Source: Chitinophagaceae bacterium (GTDB taxonomy: Bacteria > Bacteroidota > Bacteroidia > Chitinophagales > Chitinophagaceae). From it: DNA of 56,113 bases. Both the position numbers and the translations under genes were made by a program. Of the stretch, positions 12,539 to 44,700 are shown piece by piece. How positions within the stretch are numbered: position 1 is the first letter of the stretch; every line of letters starts with the position of its first letter. Location: positions 1 through 56,113 of the forward strand of contig JANWHX010000294.1 of assembly GCA_025450235.1 (NCBI GenBank), in the 5' to 3' direction. The notes under the pieces are model-generated. The model saw nothing but the letters and a program-made list of their open reading frames with translations, was not told the origin of the DNA and did not search any database.

Positions 12539-12603
12539 TAAAATTAGAAATTACGCAATTTTGATTGTTCTGTTTATTGATTAATTATGTATACTTTATT
12601 AAC
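12539..12603 (-). promoter_or_regulatory. promoter 'a' of the catabolic operon (shared architecture)
   Basis: On the minus strand: AATAAAGTATACA (GTATACA = 12588-12594), ATAAACAGAAC (12567-12577) and TAATTTTA (12539-12546). There are exactly 48 nt from the G of GTA to the T of the -7 box. Confidence 0.45.
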
Positions 12604-12758
12604 ACTGTATTGTATTATTTTTTTCAATATCGAATTGCAACTTACTCATTTCAAATATTGCAAATTGACCGTCAGTTTGCGCACCGCATTTGATTGCTGA
12701 AACGAGCCTGGGAACATGGCGAATACCCCTCTCGACAGGAAAAGAATCTAAAATATTA

Positions 12759-12766
12759 TACTTTTA
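12759..12766 (+). promoter_or_regulatory. candidate -7 box for the AraC genes
   Basis: TACTTTTA (TAnnTTTA) lies 45 nt upstream of the ATG at 12812. No good -33 TTTG was found. Confidence 0.25.
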
Positions 12767-12811
12767 AAACAAAAATTTCATTAAATTGGGGGTGGATTGT
12801 TAATTTAGTAT

Positions 12812-13675
12812 ATGAAGCCGCAACTCCACAGGCTGCCCGTTTCGGCGGACGCCTCTTTTCTATATAAACAACTTGATCTTCCCTATTTCGCCAACCCCTG
12901 GCATTTCCATAAAGAGTATGAGTTGGTACTTATTGATAAAAGCAGCGGCACAAGATTTATCGGCGATAGCGTCAGTCATTTTGAAGGCGGTGACCTTTGC
13001 TTCATTGGCTCAAATATTCCACACCTGTATCGAAACAGTGAAGCGCACTACGCGGGGAAAAGTAAGCTCAGGGCGAGATCGGTTTTTGTTCATTTTACCC
13101 GGGACTTTTTAGGAAACGACTTCTTTGATGTACCTGAAATGAAACACATTTACCGGTTGCTTGCAAAGCCATCATTAGCGTTCGAGATACACGGCAAAAC
13201 GAAAAAAAGTGCAATCACCATACTTCGGGACATGGAAGTTCAAAATCCTGCTCAACGATTATTGAGTTTGCTCGAAATACTGGTGCACTTGTCGCAAAGC
13301 CCGGATCTAAAGCCGCTGTTGTCTAAAGACTTTTCCGCTAATACCAGTTTGGACACTGAGAGAATAAACAAGGTTTTTGAATTTATTATTAGCAATTACA
13401 CACAGGAGATATATGTCCACGAAATAGCCTCAAAACTTGATATGAGTGTCGCCTCATTTTCAAGGTATTTCAAACATCACACACGCAAGACATTTTCCGA
13501 CTATGTAACAGAAATAAGAATCGGTCATGCGTGCCGGCTCCTGATGGAGGATAATTACAGTGTTTCAGAAGTCAGTTACCAGAGCGGGTTCAGCAACCTG
13601 GCCAATTTTTATCGTCACTTCAAGAAAAATGTTGGGGTGATACCCAAAGAATACAGGAACACATTTTTAAAATAA
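12812..13675 (+). CDS. AraC-family transcriptional regulator (cupin sensor + HTH)
   Basis: N-terminal cupin-like WHFHKEYELVLI...GDLCFIGSNIPH. C-terminal double HTH ...IRIGHACRLLMEDNYSVSEVSYQSGFSNLANFYRHFKK. Confidence 0.85.
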   Translation: MKPQLHRLPVSADASFLYKQLDLPYFANPWHFHKEYELVLIDKSSGTRFIGDSVSHFEGGDLCFIGSNIPHLYRNSEAHYAGKSKLRARSVFVHFTRDFLGNDFFDVPEMKHIYRLLAKPSLAFEIHGKTKKSAITILRDMEVQNPAQRLLSLLEILVHLSQSPDLKPLLSKDFSANTSLDTERINKVFEFIISNYTQEIYVHEIASKLDMSVASFSRYFKHHTRKTFSDYVTEIRIGHACRLLMEDNYSVSEVSYQSGFSNLANFYRHFKKNVGVIPKEYRNTFLK

Positions 13676-13684
13676 TTGCCGTTT

Positions 13685-14557
13685 ATGAAGCCACTACTTT
13701 CGAAAATACCGTTTTCATCGGATTCCTCCTTTCTATATAAAAAGCTGGAATGTGATTACTTCAATGATCCCTGGCATTTCCATAAGGAATTTGAACTGGT
13801 CATGATCAACCGGAGCAGTGGCACCAGATTCATTGGCGACAATGTGTCCAGTTTCAAAGAGGGAGACCTAACCTTTATCGGTTCCAATATCCCGCATATG
13901 CTACGGAACAACGAGGAGTTTCACCGGCGAAAGGGAAAATCAGGAGCCAGCGCTATTTATATTCATTTCACAAAAGATTTTCTTGGAAAGCATTACTTTG
14001 AAATACCCGAAATGAAATTAGTGAACCGGCTGCTACAGCGATCATCACTGGCACTTGACATTCATGGAAAAACCAAAAAATATACGACCGCCAAACTCCA
14101 GGATATGTTTGAGCAAGATCCAACCCGGCGTTTATTGAGTCTCCTGGAAATTCTTATCCAACTATCCCAAAGTAATGAAATGCGGCCGTTGCTCTCTACT
14201 GGTTACTCGGCAAACACTATCGGCGACACCGAGCGAATAAATAACGTGTTTGAGTTTATCATGGATAAGTACACTGAACAAATCTATGTACAGGAAATAG
14301 CGTCAAAATTAAACATGAGTGTCGCCGCATTTTCACGGTATTTCAAACACCGTACAAGAAGGACTTTTTCAGACTATGTAACAGAGATCAGGATCGGCCA
14401 TGCCTGCAGGCTGTTGATGGAAAACAATTGCAGCATATCTGAAGTAAGTTATCAAAGTGGTTTTGACAACCTTTCTAATTTTTACCGGCATTTCAAGAAA
14501 ATAGTTGGGATAATCCCTAAAGAATACCGGGACCGGTTCTTAAAAGTGTCTGCCTGA
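13685..14557 (+). CDS. AraC-family transcriptional regulator, tandem paralogue
   Basis: Collinear with the previous protein. The ATG at 13685 aligns MKPLLSKIPFSSDSSFLYKKL with MKPQLHRLPVSADASFLYKQL. The track start 13676 is TTG. Confidence 0.85.
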   Translation: MKPLLSKIPFSSDSSFLYKKLECDYFNDPWHFHKEFELVMINRSSGTRFIGDNVSSFKEGDLTFIGSNIPHMLRNNEEFHRRKGKSGASAIYIHFTKDFLGKHYFEIPEMKLVNRLLQRSSLALDIHGKTKKYTTAKLQDMFEQDPTRRLLSLLEILIQLSQSNEMRPLLSTGYSANTIGDTERINNVFEFIMDKYTEQIYVQEIASKLNMSVAAFSRYFKHRTRRTFSDYVTEIRIGHACRLLMENNCSISEVSYQSGFDNLSNFYRHFKKIVGIIPKEYRDRFLKVSA

Positions 14558-14564
14558 CGCCCGG

Positions 14565-15116
14565 TTAAGAATATTTATTGTAAAAATGATTGGCACTTTC
14601 AATCCAATCGAGAAAAGCCGGCTGCAGGTTATTTAAGTGCGCCAGTTCAACCAAAATCTTCTGAAGCGCTTCGATATTATCTTCATGCTGTTCTACACAA
14701 TAAATAACAAGTCCTTTTTCGGCTGCCCCATTACACCACTCAAATCGTTTGAATAAAATAGCCAGCAGTTTTCCAGGGAATGAAAAAGGTGGCACCAATT
14801 CAATATTGTCTCTCAACACGTCTTTCCTGACAACCCTTTTATTTGAAACGATCATTTCAAGATCATCGTTGCATCCACAGGCAAGCACGTCGTTCCAGTG
14901 TTCTTTTGCCAATAGTGTCCTGCTGATAAATGCTTTCGGGGTTTCGGCTTTGACCGAGCCACGGCTGGTTGACTTAATTATGACGACACTTCCTTCGATT
15001 CGTTTTGTGCCATCGGGAAGGTCAACGGAAAACGGGTTCATGCCTGGAAATGAATTCCAGGAGCCGAATAACAAGATTTTTTCCGGCATATGAAGAATAT
15101 TTTTTTTTGCAGCCAT
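14565..15116 (-). pseudogene. uxaB: truncated tagaturonate reductase (altronate oxidoreductase)-like fragment
   Basis: 183 aa, against ~480 aa for UxaB. LLAILFKRFEWCNGAAEKGLVIYCVEQHEDNIEALQKILVELAHLNNLQPAFLDWIESANHF aligns with remembered E. coli UxaB ...[62 protein letters not shown]. The dinucleotide motif is degenerate (FGSWNSFPG versus FGEGNFLRA). The C-terminal two-thirds are missing. Confidence 0.55.
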
Positions 15117-15168
15117 TGGCCTGTTTTCACCTGTTTATTCTAAGGAGCTGGGGAAGCTCTCTTTAAAG

Positions 15169-16623
15169 CTATTTAGATGTTTTACCTTGTTGCACTGTTG
15201 CAAAGGATTTTTGAATTTCCGCATGTGATAATAAAGCGTTCGCGGGCAATGGAAAGTCTTTGCTGAAAACATGCAGGTCCATATTCGGCTGGATTGTAAT
15301 ACTGCTTTCATCAATCTTTCCATCTTTTCCCGATATAGCTTTCAAGTCCATCTTAAACCATTTTGCAAAAAAATGGTACATGGGCGTCCTCTTGGAAATA
15401 CCATAATCATGCTTGTCATTAGGGAGATATACGCTGGATACATTTCCAGCTTTTCCATAAAAGCCATACACCTTTTTCAGATAGGGATAATCTGTTCCGG
15501 GTACCGAAGTTGTCCAATCAGAGCCATCAGAAATAACAAGCATAGGTTTCGGGGCAATCAACGCGGCAATTTCCGCATTATTAGTTTTATGTCCTTTACA
15601 TTCGTCATGAATGGGCAGTCCACTTTCGCAAGGGCAGCCGCCATAAAAACTTGAAGAAACCATTACAACGGGAACGGTAACAGTTACGCGGTTATCTACT
15701 GCCGCCACAAGAATAGTTTGAGTACCTCCACCTGAAGCTCCGGTTACTCCCACTCTCGTTTTGTCTGCACCAGGCAACGATAATAGAAAATCAAGAGCCC
15801 TGATACTGTTCCAAGTTTGTATGGCTTCGGAGAAACCTGTTTCATGAAATGAATAACCACCTGTTTGGTTGGCCGACTCACCCCAGGAATACATGTCATA
15901 ATTAAAAACAATGGCTCCCATTTTCGCTAGTCCTCCGCAGCGAAATTGCATATCCGCCCTGTAACGACCGCTGTCAACAGAACTCGAAGGATTCTGCTCA
16001 TTATAAAAATGCCCGTGGGGGCAGATAATAACAGCTAACGGTCCTTTTACATTGGTCGGTTTGTATACCGTACCCGTTACATAATATCCCGGAACGCTTT
16101 CAAAGGCTACATTTTGTACGCTATAGCCGTTCATAATCACTTCGGACCGGTAGATTGTGTTCAAAGGAGTTCTGTTATCAAAATTCGTAATTCCCAATGC
16201 ACTCAAAATACAGTCACGCAATTCTTTTTTTCGCTTATTGAACTTTTCAGCATTAGGATAAGCACGCAACAATTCATCGAGATGTTTTTTGCCTTCTGCC
16301 TCAGAACGTCGATAGTACTCATAGGGTCCTATCTCGTAAACATTTTTTCCTTTGTCCTGGTACGCAAGATTGAGAGGCTTCAGAATGTTGTCCAGTGTAT
16401 TTTTTACATCGGATGTAAACCGCCAGGTCGCATAACTTACATTTACATCGTTCACATCCCTGTCATCGTACCGGAGTTTCACATGATAGGTCTTCTCTAC
16501 ATTCTCCAGTACTTCCCTGAGCGGCTTTTTGTAAATATCCCCGGGTTGCTGGGCAATCGCCTGGTAAATAAAGGCGACAGACAATACCGTTAAGGAACAA
16601 ATACATTTCAACGTTCTTCGCAT
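15169..16623 (-). CDS. secreted alpha/beta-hydrolase (acetyl-xylan-esterase-like carbohydrate esterase)
   Basis: Signal peptide. The nucleophile elbow is GVTGASGGG (GxSxG). A candidate His sits in NDKHDYG. A ~130-aa N-terminal accessory domain is present. Confidence 0.65.
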   Translation of the reverse strand: MRRTLKCICSLTVLSVAFIYQAIAQQPGDIYKKPLREVLENVEKTYHVKLRYDDRDVNDVNVSYATWRFTSDVKNTLDNILKPLNLAYQDKGKNVYEIGPYEYYRRSEAEGKKHLDELLRAYPNAEKFNKRKKELRDCILSALGITNFDNRTPLNTIYRSEVIMNGYSVQNVAFESVPGYYVTGTVYKPTNVKGPLAVIICPHGHFYNEQNPSSSVDSGRYRADMQFRCGGLAKMGAIVFNYDMYSWGESANQTGGYSFHETGFSEAIQTWNSIRALDFLLSLPGADKTRVGVTGASGGGTQTILVAAVDNRVTVTVPVVMVSSSFYGGCPCESGLPIHDECKGHKTNNAEIAALIAPKPMLVISDGSDWTTSVPGTDYPYLKKVYGFYGKAGNVSSVYLPNDKHDYGISKRTPMYHFFAKWFKMDLKAISGKDGKIDESSITIQPNMDLHVFSKDFPLPANALLSHAEIQKSFATVQQGKTSK

Positions 16624-16760
16624 ATAAGGATGTTTATAGTGCAGGTTTTATTTGCAAGACTTCGCTATAATGCAAAAAATGCCCGCTGTGGAAACAGAGG
16701 GCCCTGAATTGCTTGCGAAAATCTAACATTTTGCTTAATCAATGTTATTACCTGCAGTAC

Positions 16761-16825
16761 CGAAACTAAGAACGGGCTTTTAGAAAAATATCAGAAATTC
16801 TATTCAAGATGTATACTTTTTTAAC
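16761..16825 (-). promoter_or_regulatory. promoter 'b' (shared architecture, weaker -7 box, long leader)
   Basis: On the minus strand: TTAAAAAAGTATACA (GTATACA = 16810-16816), then 48 nt to TAGTTTCG (16761-16768). The leader to the ATG at 16623 is ~137 nt. Confidence 0.3.
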
Positions 16826-16976
16826 CTTGTCAATTTTTCTGCTATAATCCAGCCAGATCCGTCGCCAAAAAAATATAATCTACAATAAATTGATTGCTCC
16901 TTAGCAAAAAAAAGATGTCGGTCAGGATGCGGATTTATATTTTCAATTTTGAACCGCAGATATGATCCATTTGGTT

Positions 16977-18311
16977 TTATTCTTGTTGTTCACCCATCCG
17001 CTTATTTTTGGTGAAATCAGTTGGCGGCCCCGCCGGGGATAAAACAAATACCTGGCACTCGTGCGATTGAAGCGAGGCAGATAATGTTCCATTGGAAGCT
17101 CCCAGTGGTTTATGTTTCCATACATCATATACATTGTAATGCGCGGCAGAATCCAACTCGATACTTTTAAATTCGGTTGTTATAGATTTACTTGTCGAGT
17201 TACGGTTGAAAAATGCAATAGCGAATCGGTTGCCTGAAAGTGGCTTCTTCCATACTTCCATTCCATCCTTTCGCAATACACGAATTCCTTGTTTGCCTAA
17301 GCTATCCTGGTCAATAGCAACCAGGTCTTTATTCAGAAGGATCTCCTTTGTTGTTTCATTCATATTCCGGATATCGCAGCCCACCATTAACGGCGCCGCC
17401 AACATGCACCACATGCTCATCTGTGTGCGATATTCAATATCATTACAACCGCCACCTTTTATAAAACCCGTATTGTTCAGCCCGACAACGAGCATGTCCG
17501 GATCATTCCAGCCACCGGGTCCTGTAAAACGATCGAGATTTGATACTACATCGATTGATGTGACGATGCCTATCGGGCTGGACTCATTTCTTGGAAGATC
17601 CCAGATATCATGTACATCATAGGAAGTGCGCCACATATGACCGCCCACTTCCTTTCCCCATAACCAGGGAGAACGCGGGCCCCATTCGCAAATGCTAAAA
17701 AGAATCGGCCTGCCGGTACTTTTCAAAGCATCACCCATCTTTTTATAACGTTCCATGGCCATTTTGTAATCGTTATTCTCAGATGCATAATCATTACAAT
17801 AGCAATAATCATATTTCAGGAAATCGACGCCCCATTCGGCAAAAAGCTTTGCGTCTTTTTCTTCGTATCCGTAACTGCCCGGCCTGTCGCCGCAGGTCAG
17901 TGTTCCCGCATCCGAGTATATTCCGAATTTCAGCCCTTTACTATGTACATAATCCGCAAGCGCTTTAATGCCTGAAGGGAAGCGAGCGGAATCAGGATAC
18001 AACAGTCCCGTTGAAGAATCCCGGCCGCCTTGCCATATATCATCAATGACAATGTACCTGAAGCCAACATCTTTTAATCCTGTTGCGGCCATGGCGTCCG
18101 CAGTTTCCCGAATCACCTGTTCACTTACATTTTTTCCGAAAGGGTTCCAACTATTCCAGCCCATCGGTGGAGTTTTGGCAAGATCGGCATAGTCTGCGTT
18201 CTCCTTAGCGACGTCGCCGGGTTTAGCTTCTGTATTCTCCTTTTTTTCATTGCAACTTATAAAAAAGATACTGATAAGACCTGCGATAAAGATTCCCTTG
18301 AATTTTTCCAT
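16977..18311 (-). CDS. GH27 alpha-galactosidase / alpha-N-acetylgalactosaminidase
   Basis: Lipoprotein-type signal (FFISC). Carries PPMGWNSWNPFG, FLKYDYC and CEWG, which are hallmarks of GH27 (melibiase) enzymes. Confidence 0.9.
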   Translation of the reverse strand: MEKFKGIFIAGLISIFFISCNEKKENTEAKPGDVAKENADYADLAKTPPMGWNSWNPFGKNVSEQVIRETADAMAATGLKDVGFRYIVIDDIWQGGRDSSTGLLYPDSARFPSGIKALADYVHSKGLKFGIYSDAGTLTCGDRPGSYGYEEKDAKLFAEWGVDFLKYDYCYCNDYASENNDYKMAMERYKKMGDALKSTGRPILFSICEWGPRSPWLWGKEVGGHMWRTSYDVHDIWDLPRNESSPIGIVTSIDVVSNLDRFTGPGGWNDPDMLVVGLNNTGFIKGGGCNDIEYRTQMSMWCMLAAPLMVGCDIRNMNETTKEILLNKDLVAIDQDSLGKQGIRVLRKDGMEVWKKPLSGNRFAIAFFNRNSTSKSITTEFKSIELDSAAHYNVYDVWKHKPLGASNGTLSASLQSHECQVFVLSPAGPPTDFTKNKRMGEQQE

Positions 18312-18340
18312 ATGATTTACTGATTTGATGTTAGCCGACT

Positions 18341-19453
18341 CTATACTTTAACGAATGTTTTCTTGCGATACATCCAATAGAGGATTAACCAGATTACGAT
18401 CAATGCGGCAAGTTCCTGTACAAATTCATTCCAGGGACCCAACCATTGAGCAAGGCCTCCCACAAACACGCTACCTATTAACGTAAAATGAAACAGATGC
18501 GTAGCGACATATACGGCGATTGCATTCATACCGATCACGACGAAGGGGAATGCCCATTTTTTATAGCCCCATACATCTATGACTAAATAGAATAATGCCA
18601 GCAGCAAAAAGCTCCATCCACCTGCATACAGCACCAGTGTACTGGTCCATAAATGATGTATAATCGGAAACCAGATACCCCAGATCTTACCCGCTGCAAG
18701 GCAGCCGACACCAATCAATGCCAGTTGAGCCGCTTTTTTCTTTTCTCCCTGTGCAGACATCAAAATCTTCCCGGCAAATACGCCAAGCATCACAGAACAA
18801 ACGAAGGTCATATTCGTGAGTATGTACGTCCAGCCTTCACCTTCCTGGAAATGGCCCAACACCCGGTTGTCGACATACAACGGAAGGTTTATCGTTGGCT
18901 CAAACATGCCTGCAGGATAGCCCGGTACCGGTATGAATGCTATCACGACCCAATACAGCGACAGCAAAAAGGCAGTGATGCCTATTTGCCACTTTAAATT
19001 CAGTTCGAGTAGTAAGACAGAACTGACGAGATAGCCCACTGCAATGGCGTGAAGGGTATCGGTCCACAAATGAATTTTATTGATATCGAAGGTCAGCAAA
19101 TGACCAGACGCGATCAATCCAAGGATATATAACCTGATAACCCTCCTCAACACATGTGCATAGATCTGCTTTTTGCTATCTCCCCTGTCGAGACGGGTTT
19201 TGAATGCTACCGGCATGACCACTCCAACAATAAACATGAATAGCGGCATTATGATATCATAAAAATGGAACCGGCCCCATTGGTGAGCAAAATGCTCCGC
19301 GAGCCCGTTTAAAAAATTGTTGGGATGAGCCTTTGCCAACGCAATAATCACATCGCCGCCACCGATGATCCAGAGCATGTCGAAACCTCTTAGGGCATCA
19401 ACGCAAATCAATCGCTTGTTAATATTGGCCGGGGTATTATGCGTGGCGCTCAT
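18341..19453 (-). CDS. polytopic membrane acyltransferase-like protein (DUF5009 / heparan-alpha-glucosaminide N-acetyltransferase-like)
   Basis: The N-terminal RLICVDALRGFDMLWIIGG motif and ~10 TM helices are as recalled for HGSNAT-like bacterial proteins. Confidence 0.7.
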   Translation of the reverse strand: MSATHNTPANINKRLICVDALRGFDMLWIIGGGDVIIALAKAHPNNFLNGLAEHFAHQWGRFHFYDIIMPLFMFIVGVVMPVAFKTRLDRGDSKKQIYAHVLRRVIRLYILGLIASGHLLTFDINKIHLWTDTLHAIAVGYLVSSVLLLELNLKWQIGITAFLLSLYWVVIAFIPVPGYPAGMFEPTINLPLYVDNRVLGHFQEGEGWTYILTNMTFVCSVMLGVFAGKILMSAQGEKKKAAQLALIGVGCLAAGKIWGIWFPIIHHLWTSTLVLYAGGWSFLLLALFYLVIDVWGYKKWAFPFVVIGMNAIAVYVATHLFHFTLIGSVFVGGLAQWLGPWNEFVQELAALIVIWLILYWMYRKKTFVKV

Positions 19454-19471
19454 AAGCTTGTTGACGGAAAA

Positions 19472-21306: not shown

Positions 21307-21371
21307 TAAATTTATCGGCTTGTTATTTCACAAATATTCCATAATCAATTTAATCTCTGTACTTTTTTAAC
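21307..21371 (-). promoter_or_regulatory. promoter 'c' for 19472-21271 / 18341-19453 / 16977-18311
   Basis: On the minus strand: GTTAAAAAAGTACA (21358-21362), 23 nt, TTTG, 16 nt, TAAATTTA (21307-21314). The box lies 35 nt from the ATG. Confidence 0.5.
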
Positions 21372-26660: not shown

Positions 26661-26725
26661 CAAATTTATCGGGTTGATGATGTATAAACGTCTTATAATT
26701 TGTTCATGATGTGTACTTTTTTAAC
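26661..26725 (-). promoter_or_regulatory. promoter 'd' for the PIG-L/NHL/GH20-like unit
   Basis: On the minus strand: GTTAAAAAAGTACA (26712-26716), 23 nt, TTTA, 16 nt, TAAATTTG (26661-26668, a perfect TAnnTTTG). The box lies 28 nt from the ATG at 26632. Confidence 0.55.
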
Positions 26726-31284: not shown

Positions 31285-31349
31285 TAAAAATAGCCCCCGG
31301 CTCCAGATTTTAGTTCTGCTTATCAATTGACTTTATGTACTTTTTTGCC
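31285..31349 (-). promoter_or_regulatory. promoter 'e' for the GH20-like/GH28-like unit
   Basis: On the minus strand: GGCAAAAAAGTACA (31336-31340), ATAAGCAGAAC (31313-31323) and TATTTTTA (31285-31292). Same 48-nt spacing. The -33 position reads TAAA, which is poor. Confidence 0.45.
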
Positions 31350-36400: not shown

Positions 36401-36412
36401 TGTTTTACTTCA

Positions 36413-37978: not shown

Positions 37979-37997
37979 ATTGGCTAAATCAGCGCCT

Positions 37998-39791
37998 TTA
38001 TTTTAATAAAAATGTTCCGGAGTTTTTATAATCATCGTCACTACCCCAAATTGGCTTCCAATACAAAGTGGCCGAGGTTTTCTCTGGGAAATTATCCTGG
38101 TCACGATACCCGATATTGACCCGGACCGAATTATCTGTCTTTGTTAGCGTAACAGCAGGCAGGGTGATATCCATCATTAAAATAGAATCAGAAAAATATC
38201 TTTTTGTCTTTATGTCTTTGGCCCCAATGCTACCCTTTCCTTCGATAGTTATTTTGCCATCGCCCGGTGATATTGTCAACAAAATTTGCCGACCGGCTGA
38301 ATCTTCAACATAGAGAAATAAAAGATCCCTGGGTTTTGATGGATCGTTTATCCATTGGTCATCATTTACCAGTACAACCAGGTGAATTAATTTGCTATCC
38401 TTTATTAATTTAAATCGGAAAAAAACATCACCGGGACCCGACCAATACCATCTTCCATCGAGTTGTTCAGGTTCTACTACCGCAATCATACCCGAAGTAT
38501 CCTGCCCGTGATATACTTGCCTGGCTGGGTTGGTATTGTTTGATTCCAGGGGAACAAGTTTCCAGCTAAGCAGGAGTCTTTTATTGGCTGTTATCGAATA
38601 GGATGTATTCTTGTATGAATATTCGCCCATTAAAGAAATATCGACAAAAGGAAGATCAGCCAAATCAACCAATGAGTTATCCTTTTTCGAAATTGTTATA
38701 GGCTGTGTGATTGTTTGGTGCGGTTCAACAATCGCATTTATTTCACAGGGAGTTACCAAATATTGTTTTTTATCGCACAACTGTCCGGTTACTTTAAGGG
38801 GATAGTCCGTCGGATTATCCAATTTTATTTCCGCCGTTAAGGCTTTCTCCTGTTGATGTTCGCTTACCAAGGAAACCGGGTGTAACCAGGTCTGATCAAT
38901 CAATGCCTGCGTAATTGAATATGTAGTGTCATTGACCACATCTTCTTTTATTATACCCTGCAATTTTAAATTCACAATCCTGGGTTCGCCGCTGGTGAGA
39001 GTAACTATTGTCAGGTGATCATATTCGCCAAATTTTTCTCCCCGCAGGTCGCTTCCTCCTCCGGTACTGCCCAGAACAAAATATTTATTCCCGTTCTTCA
39101 TCATCTTTACGTAGGTGTGATGATGGCCGGAAAAAAGGGTATAGTTATTTCCTTTCAGCAGCGCCTCAATTTTTTCGAAACCTTCTTCCCTCTCATTTCT
39201 ACCTTGCCAAACCGGCCGGTGCATGAAAAGAAAGGTCCAGCGTACGCCGGCATTATCTGCTATCGCTTTCTTAAAATAATTTACCTGTTCGTCCCGGATG
39301 CCTCCATGCCCTCCATCTTCCGTGTTTATGCACAGGAACAATACATTCTTGTAAACAAAATGATAATAGGGCGGACCAACATATTTTTTCCATTGCTGTT
39401 CCATTAAAGGATTGCCGATATCGTGATTCCCGGGAACATAAAAGAAACGCATTCCCAGAGGTTTGATATCTGCATTAAACTCCTGCCATTGTCTTTCAAT
39501 AACGGCAGTATCGTAAGTTTTTCCATCAGTGAGATCGCCTACAGATATTACAAATTGAGGTTGTAATAGCTGTAGTTTTTCAACTGCATCCTCAAATACA
39601 CCGGGTCGCCTGCCGCCCCACACGTCAGAAATGATTGCAAACTGTAATTTGCCCGTATCATCATTGAATGGAAGGTTGGTGGAAGACATACGGTTCCCCG
39701 TACCTTGCTGAGCAATGGTAACACTTGCGGAAAGAAGAATTAAATAAATGACAAGTGTCCTTCTTGCAGTAGTGGCCGCTTTCAAATTCAA
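37998..39791 (-). CDS. calcineurin-like metallophosphoesterase with ~330-aa C-terminal beta-rich domain
   Basis: FAIISDVWGG, VGDLTDG, PGNHDI, FMHRP and SGHHHTY motifs. This is a different subfamily from the three PAP-like genes. Confidence 0.75.
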   Translation of the reverse strand: MNLKAATTARRTLVIYLILLSASVTIAQQGTGNRMSSTNLPFNDDTGKLQFAIISDVWGGRRPGVFEDAVEKLQLLQPQFVISVGDLTDGKTYDTAVIERQWQEFNADIKPLGMRFFYVPGNHDIGNPLMEQQWKKYVGPPYYHFVYKNVLFLCINTEDGGHGGIRDEQVNYFKKAIADNAGVRWTFLFMHRPVWQGRNEREEGFEKIEALLKGNNYTLFSGHHHTYVKMMKNGNKYFVLGSTGGGSDLRGEKFGEYDHLTIVTLTSGEPRIVNLKLQGIIKEDVVNDTTYSITQALIDQTWLHPVSLVSEHQQEKALTAEIKLDNPTDYPLKVTGQLCDKKQYLVTPCEINAIVEPHQTITQPITISKKDNSLVDLADLPFVDISLMGEYSYKNTSYSITANKRLLLSWKLVPLESNNTNPARQVYHGQDTSGMIAVVEPEQLDGRWYWSGPGDVFFRFKLIKDSKLIHLVVLVNDDQWINDPSKPRDLLFLYVEDSAGRQILLTISPGDGKITIEGKGSIGAKDIKTKRYFSDSILMMDITLPAVTLTKTDNSVRVNIGYRDQDNFPEKTSATLYWKPIWGSDDDYKNSGTFLLK

Positions 39792-39871
39792 AAAAATTAG
39801 TTTTAGTCGGGTTAAAGTAAAGAAGAATATGGTTACTGGGAATTAGAAATAAATCAGGTTTAGTATTAAAG

Positions 39872-39906
39872 AAATAGCCCATATTAATAATAAATACGGG
39901 CTATTT
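39872..39906 (-). terminator. hairpin just downstream of susD-like gene (attenuator/terminator candidate)
   Basis: On the minus strand: AAATAGCCC, a 17-nt loop, then GGGCTATTT (a 9-bp perfect stem) followed by CTTTAAT. It begins 13 nt after the SusD-like stop. Confidence 0.35.
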
Positions 39907-39918
39907 AGGTGGAGGGGC

Positions 39919-41436
39919 TTATGGTTTGTCCCACCAAACACGGGTGGAAGTAATATCTTGTCCTTGCCTGGTAACAGCTTCGTTGATATTCGGGTTCGAT
40001 GCGTATTCGTCACGCGGATAATATAGTCTTCTTGGAAGTTGGGCTCCTAAATTGCCGCTTAAGCTAAGATTCAAGCCGCTATAAGTATCTGGGTAGCCGC
40101 TTCTACGCATGTTGGCCCAGGCCTCGTAATAGTTTGGAAAAGTTTCTATCCAGTATTGTGTATTGATCTGAATTAATGCATTTGCGGGATCATAAGGATT
40201 AGCTGCGAGGTAAGCATTTTGCTGAGCCACTGTGATAGCCCCACTATTCCATCCGTCAGTGCCGTAAATAGCTAACTCGCCCATGGCCGCTTTTACACCA
40301 TTTTCATAGAGGGTTTGGGCATTTCCTGGAACGATATTTCTTACAGCTAATTCAGCGAGCTGAAATTGAACCTGGGCATAGCTTAAGTGAACAAAGGGAG
40401 CTGAGTATTTTCCCAGAGTTCTAATGTTCGCAACCGATGCACTGTCTCTTTGTACCGATTGCACAAATTGATCACGTCCCCTTTGATTTGCTGGATTATG
40501 ATCTCCTTCCTGGTAGGATGTTAAAGGGAGTTTCTCTCTCATACAGTATGCAGGAGTACGGGGGTCATTACGGAGCTTTAATGAATCCACAAAAGGCTGA
40601 GCAAGCCGGTATGTAGTGATGTAGCTTGAACTGATCCATGTGTGGGCAGTGCCATTGGATGTGGTGCCTGTCCCTGCTAGCTGGGTAGTATAATTGACAA
40701 TAAAATTATCGCTATTGCTTGTCATCAGTCCACCAGCGACAGCCTGCTCTGCATACTTTTTTGCGTTAGCAGGGTCCACTTTCACTATCCGCAAGGCCAA
40801 TCTCAGCATAAGGCTATTGGCAAACTTTTTCCATTTTGTGATATCGCCATTATATACAATGTCAGCAGACAGGGGCGTTCCTTTCGAAGAATTGAATCCC
40901 GCGATGGCCTCAGTTAATTCTTTGAACATGTCTTCATATATCTTTTGCTGGGGATCATATTTAGGCGTTGTAACTCCCTGCGAATACCCTTTAATCGCTT
41001 CGAAATAGGGAATATCTCCATAACTATCTGTAACCGAGTGAAACAAATAAACTCTTAAAATACGCCCGATACTCAGGTAATTAACTTTACTCGGATCTTC
41101 CTCGCAACGCTCAATGAAATCAACTATATTTTTAAGAGGGTTCTTGTAAATCCAGACCCAATGCTCTGACATTTCCGTTGGCTTGTAAGCTGTAATGGAA
41201 GGAAAGGAAACATTCGTGTTGATCTGGCTTGCATATGCTGCGGCATAGTAGGTTTGAGTATAATAATTCTTATCAACCATCGTAAGTTCAACATAAGGAA
41301 GCAGAAACTCCAGCGTCGGAGTTGACACAAAGTCAACGCTTGTATTTATGTCCTTGAACCCTTTGTCGCATGAAGGGAGCGTTCCTGCGAGGGTTAGAAA
41401 CGTGACTAGAACATAAAGCTTAGATTTATTTTTCAT
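39919..41436 (-). CDS. SusD/RagB-family outer-membrane nutrient-binding lipoprotein
   Basis: Lipoprotein signal (LAGTLPSCD). It sits immediately downstream of the SusC-like gene. It is TPR-like and helix-rich with a typical C-terminal ...RVWWD. Confidence 0.8.
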   Translation of the reverse strand: MKNKSKLYVLVTFLTLAGTLPSCDKGFKDINTSVDFVSTPTLEFLLPYVELTMVDKNYYTQTYYAAAYASQINTNVSFPSITAYKPTEMSEHWVWIYKNPLKNIVDFIERCEEDPSKVNYLSIGRILRVYLFHSVTDSYGDIPYFEAIKGYSQGVTTPKYDPQQKIYEDMFKELTEAIAGFNSSKGTPLSADIVYNGDITKWKKFANSLMLRLALRIVKVDPANAKKYAEQAVAGGLMTSNSDNFIVNYTTQLAGTGTTSNGTAHTWISSSYITTYRLAQPFVDSLKLRNDPRTPAYCMREKLPLTSYQEGDHNPANQRGRDQFVQSVQRDSASVANIRTLGKYSAPFVHLSYAQVQFQLAELAVRNIVPGNAQTLYENGVKAAMGELAIYGTDGWNSGAITVAQQNAYLAANPYDPANALIQINTQYWIETFPNYYEAWANMRRSGYPDTYSGLNLSLSGNLGAQLPRRLYYPRDEYASNPNINEAVTRQGQDITSTRVWWDKP

Positions 41437-41463
41437 GATCTTCGTTTTAAAGAATTGAATAGA

Positions 41464-44400
41464 TTATTTCAAGGTGAACTTTATTGTCAAGCCGTAGCTA
41501 CGTGTAGGGGGAAAGCCCAATCTTTCAATACCCTGCTGGTTATTGGCAGCTATATTACTTTCCGGATCGACATTTTCTAAATCCTTGTCTTTATAAATTG
41601 TGAGCAGGTTTCGAACAACGAACGAAATAGCCGCGTTGGTAATCCCCACTTTACTCAATGCTCTGTCTGAAATCCTGTACCTGAGGGCAACTTCTCTCAA
41701 TTTTACAAAACTCGCGTTATAGATGAACTGCTCCGATATGTTCCCGATCTGGTTGTAGTATGAACTTAAATTATCAGGCAATACCATTACTGTATTTTTC
41801 CCTCCGGTTTGATTTAACCCGTCTGCTATAAATCCTTCCTCTCTTCCAAAGAGGGTGGCCATGTGTTTACCATTTTTATATGCTGTTGCATTAGTTTCGG
41901 AATAGATATCTGCACCGAATTTTGCATCAACAAATACATACAATGAAAGATTTTTATAAGTAAATGTGTTGCTAAACCCAAACATTTTGTCGTATGTACT
42001 GTTGCCCAAATATTTGGCTGTAGAATTGACGACAGGGAAACCTCGTGTATCATAAATCTTCTGGCCGCTGGCTGAATCCCTTGCATAGCTGAATCCATAG
42101 ATGCCACCATATCTTTCCCCCTCGGTCAGGCGCACGAAGGCGTTGCCGCTTTTTGACGTGGCCAGGATAATGGGAACGCCCATTACACCATCGCCCAGCG
42201 CCACTATGGTGTTGTTATTCTTGGTAAACGTAGCCGTCATGTCCCAGGTAAAATTGTTTTTCCTGATAGGCGTACCTCTCAGCAATACCTCAATCCCACT
42301 GTTTTTAAGTTTGCCTACATTAAGTACGGCGGTGCTATAGCCCGTTGTGCTGGATACGGCAGTTCTTACAATATCATCTTTAATTTGCCGGTTGTAGTAA
42401 CTGGCATCAAAACCAATTCTGCCGTTCAGGAAGTCCATCTCCAGTCCAATTTCATAATCAGTTGAGAGGAGGGGCTTGAGTTTCTTATTTGGTATGTTGC
42501 TGGTGCCGATCAACTGGAGAGGAAGGTTATTGTTATACAGAAACGCATCGAGGGAATAACTCAGGTCAAGTTGATAAGGATCGGTATCTCCACTTACCTG
42601 CGCGCTTGAAGTCCTAAGCTTGGCAAAGGATATTGCCGATGGTAATCTAAACGCATCCGAGAAAACAAACGATAGCGAAGCGGCAGGGTAGAATAGATTA
42701 TTATTATCAAGAGGTAACGTAGAAAACCAATCATTTCTTCCTGTTAATGTCAAATACAGGTATTTATTGTATGACACCTCCACACTTCCAAAGAGCGAAT
42801 TTGTCCTTCGCTTGCTTTCACTGGTTGATGGCAGCTTTGTTTTTAGATTGTTGAAGGTATAAACGTTTGGAACGATGAATGTATTTCCGGACTCGATCAG
42901 TTGAGAAGCGGCACGCCAACTGATGTTTCCACCCACGAAGGCGTTTACTGCAAATTTGCCTTTAAGATCGGGGTTTATTCCCATCATGATTTCATATTCA
43001 TTGGCGGAACTTTCAACATTGCGCTGGTTAAGTATGCCCCCGATGTTACTGGGAGAATTATATGGGAAACTTGACGAGGCATTCCCATCCGGAATGTATT
43101 GCAATCTTTTTGATAAGTAATAGTCCCGTGTCATCCTACCTCTCACATACAACCATTTTGTTATTTCATATTTAAGCATTACAGATCCCCAGAACCTGTT
43201 CTTTGAATCCGTTTCTTTTTCCTTATTTAATATATAATATGGATTGGAGACGCCTTGTGTGTAAAGGAATTCGCGACCTGTCGAATCATAACCTGGCTTT
43301 AATGGATCCAGGTCTATGGTATTAGGAAGGTATAATAATGAATAAAGCGAATTGTCGTGATTGCCTCCAATGAAAGGGCGGTTGTTTGACTTTTCAAAAG
43401 TATAGTTCAATAAAAGATCAACGTCCATTTTGCCAAACTTTGAATGAGTCTTTGTATTAATACTGGTTCTGGCGAAATTGGCGTTGGGAGTAATATCCGT
43501 GTTTCTCAGGTCCGATAACGACAACCTGTAATCATGGTTAGCATTACTTCCATATAATGACAGCGTATTGGTAATAGTATTACCAGTCCTGAAAAAGCGA
43601 TCATAAATATCTTCTACCGGGCTGAATGGCCTGACGACCCCGTCAAACTGTGGCGCCGGCGTGCCATCCATAATGTGTCCCCAGCTATCGGATCCTTTCG
43701 CATTATCGGCGCTGGTTGGCAGTTCCCGGGCATTTGCCTGGTTTATTGAACTTTGTCCATACACATTTTGGAAATTGGACAGGTCGATAAGCTTATCGAT
43801 CAATAACGATGTACTGAAATCAACATTTGTTTTTCCTCTTGCAGATTTACCACTCTTTGTTGTGACAAGGATTACTCCGTTAGCTGCCCTTGATCCATAC
43901 AAGGCCGCTGCGGCATTGCCTTTTAATACGCTGATGGTCTCAATGTCGTCCGGGTTTATGCCGGTTAGACCGTCACCAAAATCATATCCTCCTTCAGGTG
44001 TATTCGTTGCCAATCCTCCGAGGCTGCTCGAATTTATCGGAACACCATCTATAACCCACAAAGGATTATTATCCCCGGTTAAGGAAGTGGCCCCACGAAT
44101 AACAACTCTCTTTGTACCGGCAACTCCATTAGCGATATTACCAACATCAACGCCGGCAACTTTGCCTGACAAGGCATTGACAAGACTGGGTGTCTGAACC
44201 GTATTTACTTTGCTACCGTCAATCTGGGCAATAGAATATCCAAGGCTCCTGGGATTCTTTTTAATATTTAATGCCGTCACTACAACATCACCCAATTCTC
44301 TTGAATCGGGAAAAAGACTGATGTTGATGTGTGCCTGGTTTTTGACTTGTGCTTCTTGCGTGAGTAATCCGACAAAAGAAAACACAATCACGGCGCGTTT

Positions 44401-44616
44401 ATCGGCAACCAATATTGAGTAGCTTCCCAAAGCGTCGGTCGTTGTGCTTACACGTGTTCCTTTAACGGTAACTGTTACACCCATCAACGCTTCACTATTT
44501 TCATTCGTTACAATCCCTTTTATTGTTATTGGGTTGTTTTGAGCAATCCCCGGATTAGGATACCATAGGCACAGAAATAAAAGAAGCAGGGTTAGAATGG
44601 TTGATAAGTATCTCAT
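41464..44616 (-). CDS. SusC/RagA-family TonB-dependent outer-membrane transporter
   Basis: Carboxypeptidase-regulatory-like N-domain (ITIKGIVTNENSEALMGVTVTVKG). Plug (TonB-box region DVVVTAL). It ends in an aromatic-rich barrel terminus. The start is moved to Met16 (44616) because the longer ORF would begin inside the promoter motif. Confidence 0.9.
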   Translation of the reverse strand: MRYLSTILTLLLLFLCLWYPNPGIAQNNPITIKGIVTNENSEALMGVTVTVKGTRVSTTTDALGSYSILVADKRAVIVFSFVGLLTQEAQVKNQAHINISLFPDSRELGDVVVTALNIKKNPRSLGYSIAQIDGSKVNTVQTPSLVNALSGKVAGVDVGNIANGVAGTKRVVIRGATSLTGDNNPLWVIDGVPINSSSLGGLATNTPEGGYDFGDGLTGINPDDIETISVLKGNAAAALYGSRAANGVILVTTKSGKSARGKTNVDFSTSLLIDKLIDLSNFQNVYGQSSINQANARELPTSADNAKGSDSWGHIMDGTPAPQFDGVVRPFSPVEDIYDRFFRTGNTITNTLSLYGSNANHDYRLSLSDLRNTDITPNANFARTSINTKTHSKFGKMDVDLLLNYTFEKSNNRPFIGGNHDNSLYSLLYLPNTIDLDPLKPGYDSTGREFLYTQGVSNPYYILNKEKETDSKNRFWGSVMLKYEITKWLYVRGRMTRDYYLSKRLQYIPDGNASSSFPYNSPSNIGGILNQRNVESSANEYEIMMGINPDLKGKFAVNAFVGGNISWRAASQLIESGNTFIVPNVYTFNNLKTKLPSTSESKRRTNSLFGSVEVSYNKYLYLTLTGRNDWFSTLPLDNNNLFYPAASLSFVFSDAFRLPSAISFAKLRTSSAQVSGDTDPYQLDLSYSLDAFLYNNNLPLQLIGTSNIPNKKLKPLLSTDYEIGLEMDFLNGRIGFDASYYNRQIKDDIVRTAVSSTTGYSTAVLNVGKLKNSGIEVLLRGTPIRKNNFTWDMTATFTKNNNTIVALGDGVMGVPIILATSKSGNAFVRLTEGERYGGIYGFSYARDSASGQKIYDTRGFPVVNSTAKYLGNSTYDKMFGFSNTFTYKNLSLYVFVDAKFGADIYSETNATAYKNGKHMATLFGREEGFIADGLNQTGGKNTVMVLPDNLSSYYNQIGNISEQFIYNASFVKLREVALRYRISDRALSKVGITNAAISFVVRNLLTIYKDKDLENVDPESNIAANNQQGIERLGFPPTRSYGLTIKFTLK

Positions 44617-44634
44617 TAGCAAAGATTTTATAGT

Positions 44635-44700
44635 TAAATGTAAAATTTGTCCCACCCGCATAGTTCTGCTTATTAATCTATTTTGTGTACTTTTTTTGCA
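44635..44700 (-). promoter_or_regulatory. promoter 'f' for the SusC/SusD-phosphatase operon
   Basis: On the minus strand: TGCAAAAAAAGTACA (44686-44690), ATAAGCAGAAC (44663-44673) and TACATTTA (44635-44642). Same 48-nt spacing. The box lies 18 nt from the ATG at 44616. Confidence 0.5.

What the first reader, a model, noticed from the sequence alone, without database searches (positions are those of the whole stretch)
12539..44700. Six operons share a rigid promoter architecture: A-tract-GTA(C/TAC)A, exactly 48 nt, then TAnnTTTR
Seen on the minus strand. The distance from the G of GTA to the first T of a TAnnTTTR box is exactly 48 nt in all six cases. a) GTATACA 12588-12594 and TAATTTTA 12539-12546. 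b) GTATACA 16810-16816 and TAGTTTCG 16761-16768. c) GTACA 21358-21362 and TAAATTTA 21307-21314. d) GTACA 26712-26716 and TAAATTTG 26661-26668. e) GTACA 31336-31340 and TATTTTTA 31285-31292. f) GTACA 44686-44690 and TACATTTA 44635-44642. Each GTACA is preceded by AAAAAA (AATAAA in a). Sites a, e and f also share ATAARCAGAAC (12567-12577, 31313-31323, 44663-44673) abutting the -33 position. Established: Bacteroidota sigma-A promoters use a -7 TAnnTTTG and a -33 TTTG. Inference: the extra element centred near -60 is an activator site or UP-like element. It would couple the catabolic operon, four glycan units and the SusCD-phosphatase operon into one regulon. The adjacent tandem AraC paralogues are the obvious candidate binders.
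Basis: partly seen in the sequence, partly recalled or inferred. Interest (0 to 1): 0.65.

Follow-up and report, generated by a model that had tools for sequence, protein, structure and literature searches.

The report
AraC-type operator shared by six promoters
Six operons of a soil Chitinophagaceae glycan-degradation cluster each carry the same conserved DNA box exactly 48 bases upstream of their promoter's -7 element, and comparison with related genomes points to the neighbouring AraC-family regulators as its binders, which is a new example of an ordinary kind of gene switch.

Summary
All six minus-strand sites have the G of GTA exactly 48 nt upstream of a TAnnTT box (6 found, 0.00 expected). 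They occupy every large intergenic gap of the cluster from 5.8 to 44.7 kb.

- Box 1 is GTTAAAAAAGTAYAYA.
- Box 2 is about T-AA---ATTAT--GA--TTT and abuts the -33 position.
- A non-conserved 17-nt spacer follows, then the -7 box.

The same architecture, always with the 48-nt spacing, recurs at 32 distinct sites in related clusters (Chitinophagaceae, a Pedobacter-like genome, soil metagenomes). It is absent from non-cluster promoters.

The link to AraC is strong. In 679 kb of metagenome DNA chosen only by the DNA pattern, all 12 homologues of the window's AraC proteins lie 30-212 bp from the motif. Loci chosen only by AraC homology all carry it. In other lineages a second half-site lies 21 bp downstream, as in araI1-I2.

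Best reading: this is the operator of a cupin-type AraC activator that drives activator-dependent sigma-A promoters and unites six operons in one regulon.

No transcription start or binding data exist. I rate it a new member of a known kind, of moderate interest.

The parts
12588..12603 (-). Site a, box 1 (GTTAATAAAGTATACA). The G of GTA is at 12594. It lies upstream of the creatininase-RidA-3HCDH-enolase-EamA-DHDPS-RraA-SDR operon.
   Evidence: 25.1 bits. Orthologous sites occur in L068, L201, L202, L204.
12564..12584 (-). Site a, box 2 (+10 to +30), which contains ATAAACAGAAC.
12539..12546 (-). Site a, -7 box TAATTTTA. The ATG lies 26 nt downstream of its first T.
16810..16825 (-). Site b, box 1 (GTTAAAAAAGTATACA). 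The G is at 16816. It lies upstream of the glucuronoyl-esterase-like gene and the gene of unknown function (183 aa).
   Evidence: 28.7 bits
16786..16806 (-). Site b, box 2 (GAATAGAATTTCTGATATTTT).
16761..16768 (-). Site b, -7 box TAGTTTCG (an imperfect TAnnTTCG).
21356..21371 (-). Site c, box 1. The G is at 21362. It lies upstream of an operon with a 599-aa gene of unknown function, a NagX-like gene and a GH27 gene.
   Evidence: (26.0 bits)
21332..21352 (-). Site c, box 2 (TAAATTGATTATGGAATATTT). It is followed by a G, which makes the only full TTTG -33 element among the six.
21307..21314 (-). Site c, -7 box TAAATTTA.
26710..26725 (-). Site d, box 1. The G is at 26716. It lies upstream of the PIG-L, PIG-L, NHL, GH20-like operon.
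   Evidence: 25.8 bits
26686..26706 (-). Site d, box 2.
26661..26668 (-). Site d, -7 box TAAATTTG.
31334..31349 (-). Site e, box 1 (GGCAAAAAAGTACATA, the weakest of the six). The G is at 31340. It lies upstream of the GH20-like and GH28 genes.
   Evidence: 18.7 bits
31310..31330 (-). Site e, box 2, which contains ATAAGCAGAAC.
31285..31292 (-). Site e, -7 box TATTTTTA.
44684..44699 (-). Site f, box 1 (GCAAAAAAAGTACACA). The G is at 44690. It lies upstream of the operon with SusC, SusD, four metallophosphoesterases and a cytochrome c peroxidase.
   Evidence: 20.6 bits
44660..44680 (-). Site f, box 2, which contains ATAAGCAGAAC.
44635..44642 (-). Site f, -7 box TACATTTA. The ATG lies 26 nt downstream, so the real SusC start is near 44616, not 44661.
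12812..13675 (+). AraC1. It has a cupin-type N-terminal domain and a dual-HTH AraC/XylS DNA-binding domain. It is transcribed divergently from site a.
13676..14557 (+). AraC2, a tandem paralogue 67% identical to AraC1. Its start is probably the ATG at 13685.
12757..12770 (+). An inverted box-1-like copy, TATACTTTTAAAAC, 51-52 nt upstream of the AraC1 ATG. It contains TACTTTTA (TAnnTTT), so it is probably the -7 box of the AraC1 promoter and a candidate autoregulatory operator.
   Evidence: The same position is conserved in L202, L203, L204, L206, and similar copies occur in L201, L045, L068.

Best explanation
Box 1 and box 2 together form a roughly 40-bp operator, at about -70 to -30 relative to the inferred transcription start. 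I propose that it is bound by the cluster-encoded cupin-type AraC-family activators, AraC1 and/or AraC2, probably as a dimer.

Proposed mechanism (inferred, not shown):
- One DNA-binding domain sits on the strong distal half-site, GTTA-N5-GTAYA. Its two sub-elements are about one helical turn apart, which suits the two helix-turn-helix motifs of one AraC-type domain.
- The second subunit sits on the weaker proximal half-site, which abuts or replaces the -33 element.
- From there it recruits RNA polymerase carrying the Bacteroidota primary sigma factor to a normal -7 box (TAnnTTT).
- The fixed 48-nt distance is the register this contact requires.

A ligand, presumably a breakdown product of the glycan the cluster degrades, would switch on all six units together: SusCD plus phosphoesterases, four enzyme units and the catabolic operon.

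Shown: the sequence architecture, its conservation, its specificity for this kind of cluster, and its genomic linkage to the AraC subfamily. Inferred: binding, activation rather than repression, dimer geometry, the transcription start and the ligand.
For: 1. Six of six operon starts carry the element with identical spacing, and chance expectation is about 0.

2. There are 32 non-identical sites in the window, nine related genome loci and metagenome contigs, all with the 48-nt distance. G-9 to A+4, A17 and A25 are invariant or nearly so. The flanks and the +31 to +47 spacer sit at 0.25-0.28 pairwise identity, so these are discrete footprints and not a copied cassette.

3. The downstream genes of pattern-selected family hits are again cluster families: metallophosphoesterases, PIG-L, the unknown 599-aa/NagX-like/GH27 unit, the creatininase operon and PhoX plus esterase. 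28 of 47 promoter-like gaps in the same lineages lack the element, including those of non-cluster genes.

4. All 12 AraC1/2 homologues in 679 kb of pattern-selected DNA lie 30-212 bp from the motif. Eight of these have only 28-31% identity and are in other lineages.

5. Loci selected only by AraC homology carry the motif at 9 of 9 gene-facing intergenic box-1 hits. One of these is a different SusCD-GH97 locus.

6. In the other lineages the best second match to the box-1 core within +12 to +33 is at +21 in 6 of 8 promoters. Aligning AraC-adjacent promoters on the -7 box puts GTA at -48 and/or -27. A 21-bp direct repeat is what has been predicted for AraC-type DNA-binding domains in Bacteroides (PMC3878776, PMC3870299).

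7. The proteins have HTH_18 plus AraC_binding/cupin domains and RhaS-like full-length similarity.

8. Sites a, e and f lack any TTT at the -33 position, as expected of activator-dependent promoters.
Against: - No transcription start could be mapped, because there are no RNA runs, and no binding data exist.
- In the window's own family the proximal block is not a recognisable copy of box 1. The best self-match is at +18, not +21. The dimer model therefore rests on other lineages, where the absolute scores are weak.
- The same 12-nt box 1 is shared by regulators only about 30% identical. This raises an unanswered specificity problem and leaves room for box 1 being read by a common factor.
- The reverse complement of box 1 itself resembles a -7 box.
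- No whole-genome scan of the source organism was possible.
Confidence: 0.74

Rival explanations
1. Box 1 is read by a factor other than the AraC proteins. That factor could be the RNA polymerase alpha C-terminal domain (an UP-like element) or a shared nucleoid or global regulator. In this reading only the variable box 2 is the AraC site.
For: Box 1 contains a six-base A-tract and lies upstream of -40. It is nearly identical in lineages whose AraC proteins are only about 30% identical, whereas the proximal block differs between lineages and between promoter classes.
Against: - The invariant G-9, T-8, T-7, G0, T1 and A2 are more sequence-specific than known UP elements, which are A/T tracts (my own knowledge of E. 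coli UP elements).
- It is absent from 28 of 47 promoter-like gaps.
- It is found only beside AraC-subfamily genes or their regulon.
- The same half-site consensus reappears at the proximal -27 register in other lineages, which points to one protein reading both positions.
Confidence: 0.12
2. Box 1 is a -7 box on the opposite strand (TACTTTTT). Each unit would then have a back-to-back antisense or divergent promoter about 70 bp from the sense start.
For: The reverse complement of box 1 matches TAnnTTT. A near-identical copy in that orientation sits 51-52 nt upstream of the AraC ATG in the window and in L202, L203, L204, L206. In L147 and L118 box 1 itself is 47-79 bp from the AraC start.
Against: - At five of the six window sites there is no gene to drive on the plus strand.
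- Box 1 is constrained at positions that real -7 boxes leave free: C3, T4, T8 and the following TAAC are invariant, and G is never found at position 8.
- In seven tandem loci it would fire back into the AraC gene.
- The rigid register to the sense -7 box would be left unexplained.
Confidence: 0.06
3. The operator is real and AraC binds it, but the protein acts mainly as a repressor or by looping, and not as a class II-type activator.
For: - Extra box-1 copies without a -7 partner occur near the AraC promoter.
- A convergent pair lies inside the esterase gene of the Pedobacter-like loci, reminiscent of the distal araO2-type site.
- Sites b, c and d keep a TTT at -33.
Against: The operator lies wholly upstream of the -7 box and ends at -33. 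That is an activator position and not one that blocks polymerase. Sites a, e and f have no -33 element at all.
Confidence: 0.06
4. The similarity is a by-product of recent duplication of one promoter cassette and carries no regulatory meaning.
For: Sites c and d also share CCGATAAATTT around the -7 box.
Against: Spacer and flank identity among the six is 0.25, which is random, while box 1 is at 0.77. Orthologous promoters in genomes with 65-79% protein identity keep the boxes and the 48-nt distance.
Confidence: 0.01

Closest known systems
E. coli AraC at araI1-araI2 of pBAD (also RhaS at rhaBAD)
   Same: - The regulator has a cupin sensor domain and a dual-HTH domain and is encoded divergently from a target operon.
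- The operator spans about 40 bp upstream of the promoter, with a strong distal half-site and a weak proximal half-site that touches the -35-equivalent element.
- There is 21-bp phasing, seen here in relatives.
- There is probable autoregulation through a site at the regulator's own promoter.

The pBAD geometry is quoted from my own knowledge.
   Different: - The host promoter is the Bacteroidota -33/-7 type, not -35/-10.
- The half-site sequence is unrelated.
- The proteins score far below the RhaS and AraC equivalog cut-offs (77.9 against 288 bits; 51.8 against 208 bits).
- The proximal half-site in the window family is not a recognisable repeat.
- One operator type serves six operons of a glycan-utilisation cluster.
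Predicted operators of Bacteroides RhaR (BT3768) and of hybrid two-component systems with AraC-type DNA-binding domains
   Same: They are Bacteroidota sugar or glycan regulons whose predicted motifs are direct repeats with 21-bp periodicity upstream of target operons (PMC3870299, PMC3878776). The best solved-structure match of AraC1 is the DNA-binding part of a hybrid two-component system protein.
   Different: Those regulators are a different AraC subgroup or are membrane-bound sensor kinases. No fixed distance to the -7 box and no GTTAAAAAAGTA half-site turned up in the text I searched. Their motif sequences could not be retrieved for a direct comparison.
Non-HTCS AraC regulators listed among regulators of polysaccharide utilisation loci in marine flavobacteria
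   Same: This is the same category of regulator next to SusCD-type loci (PMC7641319, introduction).
   Different: That paper says the regulatory mechanisms of such loci have been characterised for only a few cases. No operator is given there for this class.

Membership tests
AraC/XylS family transcription factor (the proteins at 12812-14557) | A C-terminal domain of about 100 aa with two helix-turn-helix motifs | tested here: met
   PF12833 HTH_18 scores 82.2 bits against a cut-off of 33.6 for both proteins, and PF00165 is also above its cut-off. PDB hits over residues 175-285 are to AraC-type domains.
AraC/XylS family transcription factor (the proteins at 12812-14557) | An N-terminal cupin-type ligand-binding and dimerisation domain (the AraC/RhaS architecture) | tested here: met
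   AraC1 matches PF02311 at 22.3 bits against a cut-off of 21.1. Homologues carry precomputed PF07883 and PF02311 hits. The alignment to the RhaS model covers residues 23-283. AraC2 has no Pfam hit of its own in this region, but it is 67% identical to AraC1 over its whole length.
RhaS or AraC equivalogs (the same function as the E. coli proteins) | A score above the curated NCBIfam cut-off | tested here: not met
   RhaS scores 77.9 bits against 288, and AraC scores 51.8 against 208. The window proteins share the architecture but are not orthologues.
araI1-I2-type operator (AraC dimer on direct repeats) | [quoted passage not shown] | tested here: inconclusive
   Window family: there is no box-1-like match at +21, and the best is at +18. 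Only scattered identities are shared in the 21-bp register. Other lineages with homologous AraC genes: the best offset is +21 in 6 of 8 promoters, and GTA lies at -48 and -27.
araI1-I2-type operator (AraC dimer on direct repeats) | The proximal half-site abuts or overlaps the -35-equivalent element | tested here: met
   The conserved block ends at +30, with T28 and T30 lying 17-19 nt upstream of the -7 box.
araI1-I2-type operator (AraC dimer on direct repeats) | The regulator binds the site and activates transcription in response to a ligand | not testable with these tools
   This needs EMSA or footprinting and reporter assays.
Bacteroidota primary-sigma (sigma-ABfr) promoter | A -7 box TAnnTTTG | tested here: met
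   Five of the six sites fit TAnnTTT(A/G); site b is TAnnTTCG. T48, A49, T52 and T53 are 32/32, but the site selection required them (TA..TT at +48). T54 is 30/32 and position 55 is mostly A or G, and neither was selected for. The consensus is taken from PMC7366714.
Bacteroidota primary-sigma (sigma-ABfr) promoter | A -33 TTTG element | tested here: not met
   Only site c has TTTG. Sites b and d have TTTT and TTTA. Sites a, e and f have none. The literature treats -33 as dispensable (PMC2483708, PMC7366714), so this fits a weak, activator-dependent promoter.
Bacteroidota primary-sigma (sigma-ABfr) promoter | A transcription start a few nucleotides downstream of the -7 box | not testable with these tools
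   No RNA runs hold this sequence. The start codons lie 26-43 nt (146 nt for site b) after the first T of the box.
UP element (alpha-CTD site) | A generic A/T-rich enhancer of strong promoters, not tied to one regulator | tested here: not met
   The element is absent from 28 of 47 promoter-like gaps in the same lineages. It has invariant G/T/A positions and is always linked to the AraC subfamily or its regulon.

The most novel reading that the evidence does not exclude
GTTAAAAAAGTA, held in a fixed register at -48 and/or -27 from the -7 box, would be the common half-site of a whole AraC subfamily found across Bacteroidota classes: Chitinophagia, Sphingobacteriia, Bacteroidia and contigs that look flavobacterial. 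Because its reverse complement is itself a -7 box, the same sequence would double as the -7 element of the regulator's own promoter. That would give built-in autorepression: occupancy that activates the target operon would occlude the regulator's promoter. In this window the duplicated AraC pair might further split the regulon by box-2 class, with ATAARCAGAAC at sites a, e and f against ATTATnnGAWATTT at sites b, c and d.
Probability: 0.25. Interest if true: 0.6.

Novelty: new member of a known kind. Interest (0 to 1): 0.4.

Why it matters
- **Annotation.** It gives a concrete, testable operator and regulon for a class of regulators of polysaccharide utilisation loci (non-HTCS AraC proteins) whose mechanisms have been worked out for only a few loci (PMC7641319). 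It also ties about 36 genes of a widespread soil Chitinophagaceae gene cluster of unknown substrate into one unit. That helps in assigning functions to the several genes in it that have no family.
- **Scanning rule.** The strict 48-nt rule, and the sharing of the half-site across distant lineages, give a simple way to find such regulons in Bacteroidota genomes.
- **Tools.** It is a possible starting point for inducible promoters in a phylum where genetic tools are scarce.
- **Limits.** It does not overturn anything. The mechanism is the classical AraC one, transposed onto the Bacteroidota promoter type.

Tried and rejected
- **RNA evidence for transcription starts.** Only three soil DNA metagenome runs hold the sequence, and no RNA run does.
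- **Known RNA families.** There are no Rfam matches in the window, so the conserved blocks are not a described leader RNA.
- **Literature.** No paper in the library holds the motif together with Bacteroidetes promoters. The AraC/TAnnTTTG and AraC/PUL searches gave only general background. The rhamnose-regulon supplements did not contain RhaR site sequences for comparison.
- **Direct repeat inside the window family.** Sliding the box-1 matrix over +8 to +39 gave no peak at +21. I therefore do not claim a repeat in the window itself.
- **Applying the window-family matrix to the Bacteroidales AraC-adjacent regions.** They are too diverged for it. The -48/-27 register there rests on alignment by eye and is only suggestive.
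- **Sigma-70 promoter and terminator scan of 12-32 kb.** Counts were at shuffle level (44 against 46.5; 24 against 20.6). It gives no information on unit boundaries.
- **ECF-sigma reading of CAGAAC.** Rejected by inspection, because nothing is conserved 16-17 nt downstream of it in sites a, e and f.
- **Whole-genome scan of the source organism.** Not possible.


Full report
**Checking the observation.** I read the minus strand at the six stated places. The pattern AAAGTAYA-N43-TANNTT occurs six times in the 56-kb window, only at these places and only on the minus strand. None was found in 100 dinucleotide-preserving shuffles. The ten-base core AWAAAGTAYA occurs eight times against 0.89 expected. 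The two extras are at 5155 on the plus strand and at 6769-6778 inside an RraA-like ORF, and neither has a partner box. A weight matrix of the upstream box alone scores the six sites at 18.7-28.7 bits and nothing else above 11.1 bits. ATAARCAGAAC occurs exactly three times, at sites a, e and f. One detail is wrong: site b's box TAGTTTCG is TAnnTTCG, not TAnnTTTR.

**The surroundings.** The window is 42% G+C. The same DNA is in assembly GCA_044448505.1, the closest relatives are Chitinophagaceae metagenome-assembled genomes, and the only sequencing runs holding it are soil metagenomes. The minus strand from 5.8 to 44.7 kb carries six transcription units:
- SusC, SusD, four metallophosphoesterases and a di-haem peroxidase;
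- a GH20-like gene and a GH28 gene;
- two PIG-L deacetylases, an NHL-repeat protein and a second GH20-like gene;
- a 599-aa protein with no family, a NagX-like membrane acetyltransferase and a GH27 gene;
- a glucuronoyl-esterase-like protein and a small unknown;
- a catabolic operon of creatininase-fold hydrolase, RidA, 3-hydroxyacyl-CoA-dehydrogenase-like, enolase-superfamily, EamA, DHDPS-like, RraA-like and SDR genes.

Each unit begins after one of the large intergenic gaps, and each of those gaps holds one site. Two tandem AraC-family genes, 67% identical to each other, lie on the plus strand and are divergent from site a.

**Anatomy.** The conserved element is longer than GTACA plus an A-tract. 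Positions are counted from the G of GTA as 0.
- Box 1 is GTTAAAAAAGTAYAYA, from -9 to +6.
- T10, A12 and A13 follow.
- Then comes box 2, roughly ATTAT--GA--T-T, from +17 to +30.
- Then comes a 17-nt stretch with no conservation.
- The -7 box is at +48.

GTACA and GTATACA are the same length of element (GTA-YA-YA), so there is no indel. Among the six window sites the pairwise identity is 0.77 in box 1, 0.55 in box 2 and 0.72 in the -7 box. It is 0.25 in the upstream flank and in the spacer. These are separate footprints and not a copied cassette. The start codons lie 26-43 nt after the first T of the -7 box, or 146 nt at site b. That suits the short leaders usual in this phylum.

**Conservation elsewhere.** A scan of one genome per species with the GH20-like protein returned 80 loci. 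The element appears in front of the orthologous operons in nine of them. These are L002, L003, L004, L005 (weak), L006, L016, L044, L045 and L068, from Chitinophagaceae, Hanamia, Flavitalea, Chitinophaga alhagiae T22 and an unclassified Bacteroidota genome. In every case it has exactly 48 nt to a TAnnTT box. A metagenome scan with GTTAAAAAAGTA-N45-TANNTTT stopped at 120 stretches. About 14 of these share box 2 and lie upstream of metallophosphoesterase, PIG-L, the 599-aa/NagX-like/GH27 unit, the creatininase operon or PhoX plus esterase. A few lie upstream of other carbohydrate-type proteins. In all I collected 32 non-identical sites. G-9, A-6, A-3 to A2, A4, A17 and A25 are invariant in them. 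Box 1 and the TA..TT at +48 were part of the selection; box 2 was only loosely selected.

**Specific or generic?** In the window and six related genome loci there are 47 intergenic gaps of 70 nt or more in front of a gene. Nineteen carry the element, counting the SusC site that my ORF call had masked. The other 28 do not. These include the AraC genes' own promoters, the plus-strand genes at 0.4-5 kb, the genes at 45-50 kb and unrelated SusC genes. Together with the gene content downstream of the metagenome hits, this argues against a general promoter feature of the lineage. A whole-genome scan could not be done.

**Who binds it?** The strongest result came from searching the loci with the two AraC proteins.
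- In the 679 kb of metagenome DNA picked only by the DNA pattern, there are 12 homologues, and all 12 lie 30-212 bp from the motif. Four are orthologues (56-71% identity) in divergent arrangement. Eight are only 28-31% identical and belong to other lineages, with contig G+C of 0.33 to 0.56. Seven of those eight are arranged AraC gene, then motif, then target gene, and one is divergent.
- For the converse test I took homologues of AraC1 from the protein database and fetched their contigs. In a Pedobacter-like complete genome (L202), a second Pedobacter-like contig (L203), a 5.36-Mb genome (L204), L206, and a locus with a different SusCD-GH97 cluster (L205), every gene-facing intergenic box-1 hit has TA..TT at +48 (9 of 9).

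The linkage therefore holds whichever way the loci are chosen.

**Geometry.** In the other lineages a second, weaker copy of the box-1 core lies 21 bp downstream, for example GTTAAAAAAGTAT then GCTAAATTCGTAT in L146. Within offsets +12 to +33 the best match is at +21 in 6 of 8 promoters, which form about three independent groups. AraC-adjacent promoters of Bacteroidales GH20 loci were not chosen by motif. When they are aligned on the -7 box, they show GTA at -48 and/or -27. That alignment was made by eye, and the window-family matrix is too diverged to confirm it. In the window's own family the proximal block is not a recognisable copy of box 1. Direct repeats with 21-bp periodicity are what comparative studies predicted for AraC-type DNA-binding domains in Bacteroides (PMC3878776, PMC3870299). 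If the start lies a few nucleotides after the -7 box, box 1 spans about -70 to -54 and box 2 about -50 to -30. From my own knowledge, that is the layout of araI1 and araI2 at pBAD. Sites a, e and f have no TTT at -33 and carry ATAARCAGAAC there instead. Sites b, c and d keep TTT. A weak or missing -33 element fits dependence on an activator. The -33 element is reported as helpful but not essential (PMC2483708, PMC7366714).

**The proteins.** Both have the dual-HTH domain. AraC1 has an AraC_binding hit just above the cut-off, and homologues carry cupin hits. The best full-length model is RhaS, far below its cut-off, so they share the architecture but are not orthologues. The second recognition helix (GF-N-SNF-R-FK) is conserved across all the homologues I aligned, and the first less so. 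This may explain a shared half-site. It leaves open how paralogues avoid cross-talk.

**A further feature.** The reverse complement of box 1 reads TATACTTTTTTAAC, which contains a -7-like TAnnTTT. A near copy in that orientation has its G 51-52 nt upstream of the AraC start codon in the window (12757-12770, TATACTTTTAAAAC) and in L202, L203, L204 and L206. Similar copies occur in L201, L045 and L068. It is probably the -7 box of the regulator's promoter, shaped so that the regulator can sit on it. That would be autoregulation, and it is inference only. It also raises the rival that box 1 is an antisense promoter. I rate this low for four reasons:
- five of the six sites have nothing to drive on the plus strand;
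- box 1 is fixed at positions that real -7 boxes leave free;
- in the tandem loci it would fire into the AraC gene;
- the fixed register to the sense -7 box would be left unexplained.

**Verdict.** The best explanation is an AraC-type activator operator placed in fixed register on Bacteroidota sigma-A promoters, uniting six operons in one regulon (confidence about 0.74). I found no description of this motif in the searchable literature. It is a new member of a known kind and is of moderate interest. The most interesting open possibility is that the half-site and its register are common to an AraC subfamily across the phylum. Binding, transcription starts, the direction of regulation and the inducer all remain to be shown.

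Noticed in passing
window 12757-12770 (+); L202 around 9949; L203 around 8615; L204 around 9949; L206 around 9949: An inverted box-1-like sequence (TATACTTTTAAAAC in the window) always has its G 51-52 nt upstream of the AraC start codon. It contains a TAnnTTT box, so it may be both the -7 element of the regulator's promoter and an autoregulatory site.
   Followed up: partly
window 12797-12814 (+): A weak box-1-like string, TTGTTAATTTAGTATATG (8.1 bits), overlaps the AraC1 start codon. It may be chance.
   Followed up: no
window 12812-14557 (+): The two AraC genes are a tandem duplication, 67% identical, with almost identical recognition helices. Several relatives have two homologues on one contig, while L068, L202, L204 and L206 show one. 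I did not resolve whether the pair divides the two box-2 classes between them (ATAARCAGAAC at sites a, e, f; ATTATnnGAWATTT at sites b, c, d).
   Followed up: partly
window 16624-16976: Site b is followed by a 146-nt leader within a 353-nt gap. In relatives (L002, L202, L204, L168) a PhoX-type phosphatase gene sits between this promoter and the esterase gene. The window appears to have lost it.
   Followed up: partly
window 5804-44661 (-): The gene content includes two PIG-L-type de-N-acetylases, a NagX-like membrane acetyltransferase and a creatininase-fold protein with similarity to an inosose hydrolase (IolN). It also includes RidA, an enolase-superfamily dehydratase, four metallophosphoesterases, GH27, GH28, two GH20-like genes and a glucuronoyl-esterase-like protein. 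This hints at a phosphorylated amino-sugar/inositol-type glycan, such as glycosyl-inositol-phospholipid head groups, as the substrate. This is pure speculation.
   Followed up: no
L202 11160 (+) and 11257 (-); L203 9828 (+) and 9925 (-): A convergent pair of good box-1 matches (18-21 bits), about 100 bp apart, lies inside the esterase ORF just beyond the 3' end of the AraC gene in two Pedobacter-like loci. Neither has a -7 partner. It is unexplained and might be a distal looping site.
   Followed up: no
L115, L146, L155, L167, L176 (metagenome contigs, G+C 0.50-0.56): In a separate lineage an AraC homologue (28-31% identity) is followed within 30-71 bp by GTTAAAAAAGTATCA, a second half-site 21 bp on, a TAAnTTTGCA box at +48, and a secreted protein starting MSANIMK. 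This is a different regulon using the same half-site.
   Followed up: partly
L205 10001-20885: An AraC homologue 66% identical to AraC1 sits in front of a different SusC/SusD/GH97 cluster, with a full box1-box2-(-7) site at 11031. The same operator type is therefore used for a second glycan locus in a relative.
   Followed up: partly
window 46313-54194 (-): There are two very large ORFs of 1456 and 1182 aa, the first with a DUF6443 domain. They lie to the right of the cluster, have no motif and were not examined further.
   Followed up: no
window 6769-6778 (-): A seventh exact copy of AAAAAGTACA lies inside the RraA-like ORF. It lacks the GTT prefix, box 2 and a -7 box at +48, so I took it as chance.
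   Followed up: yes
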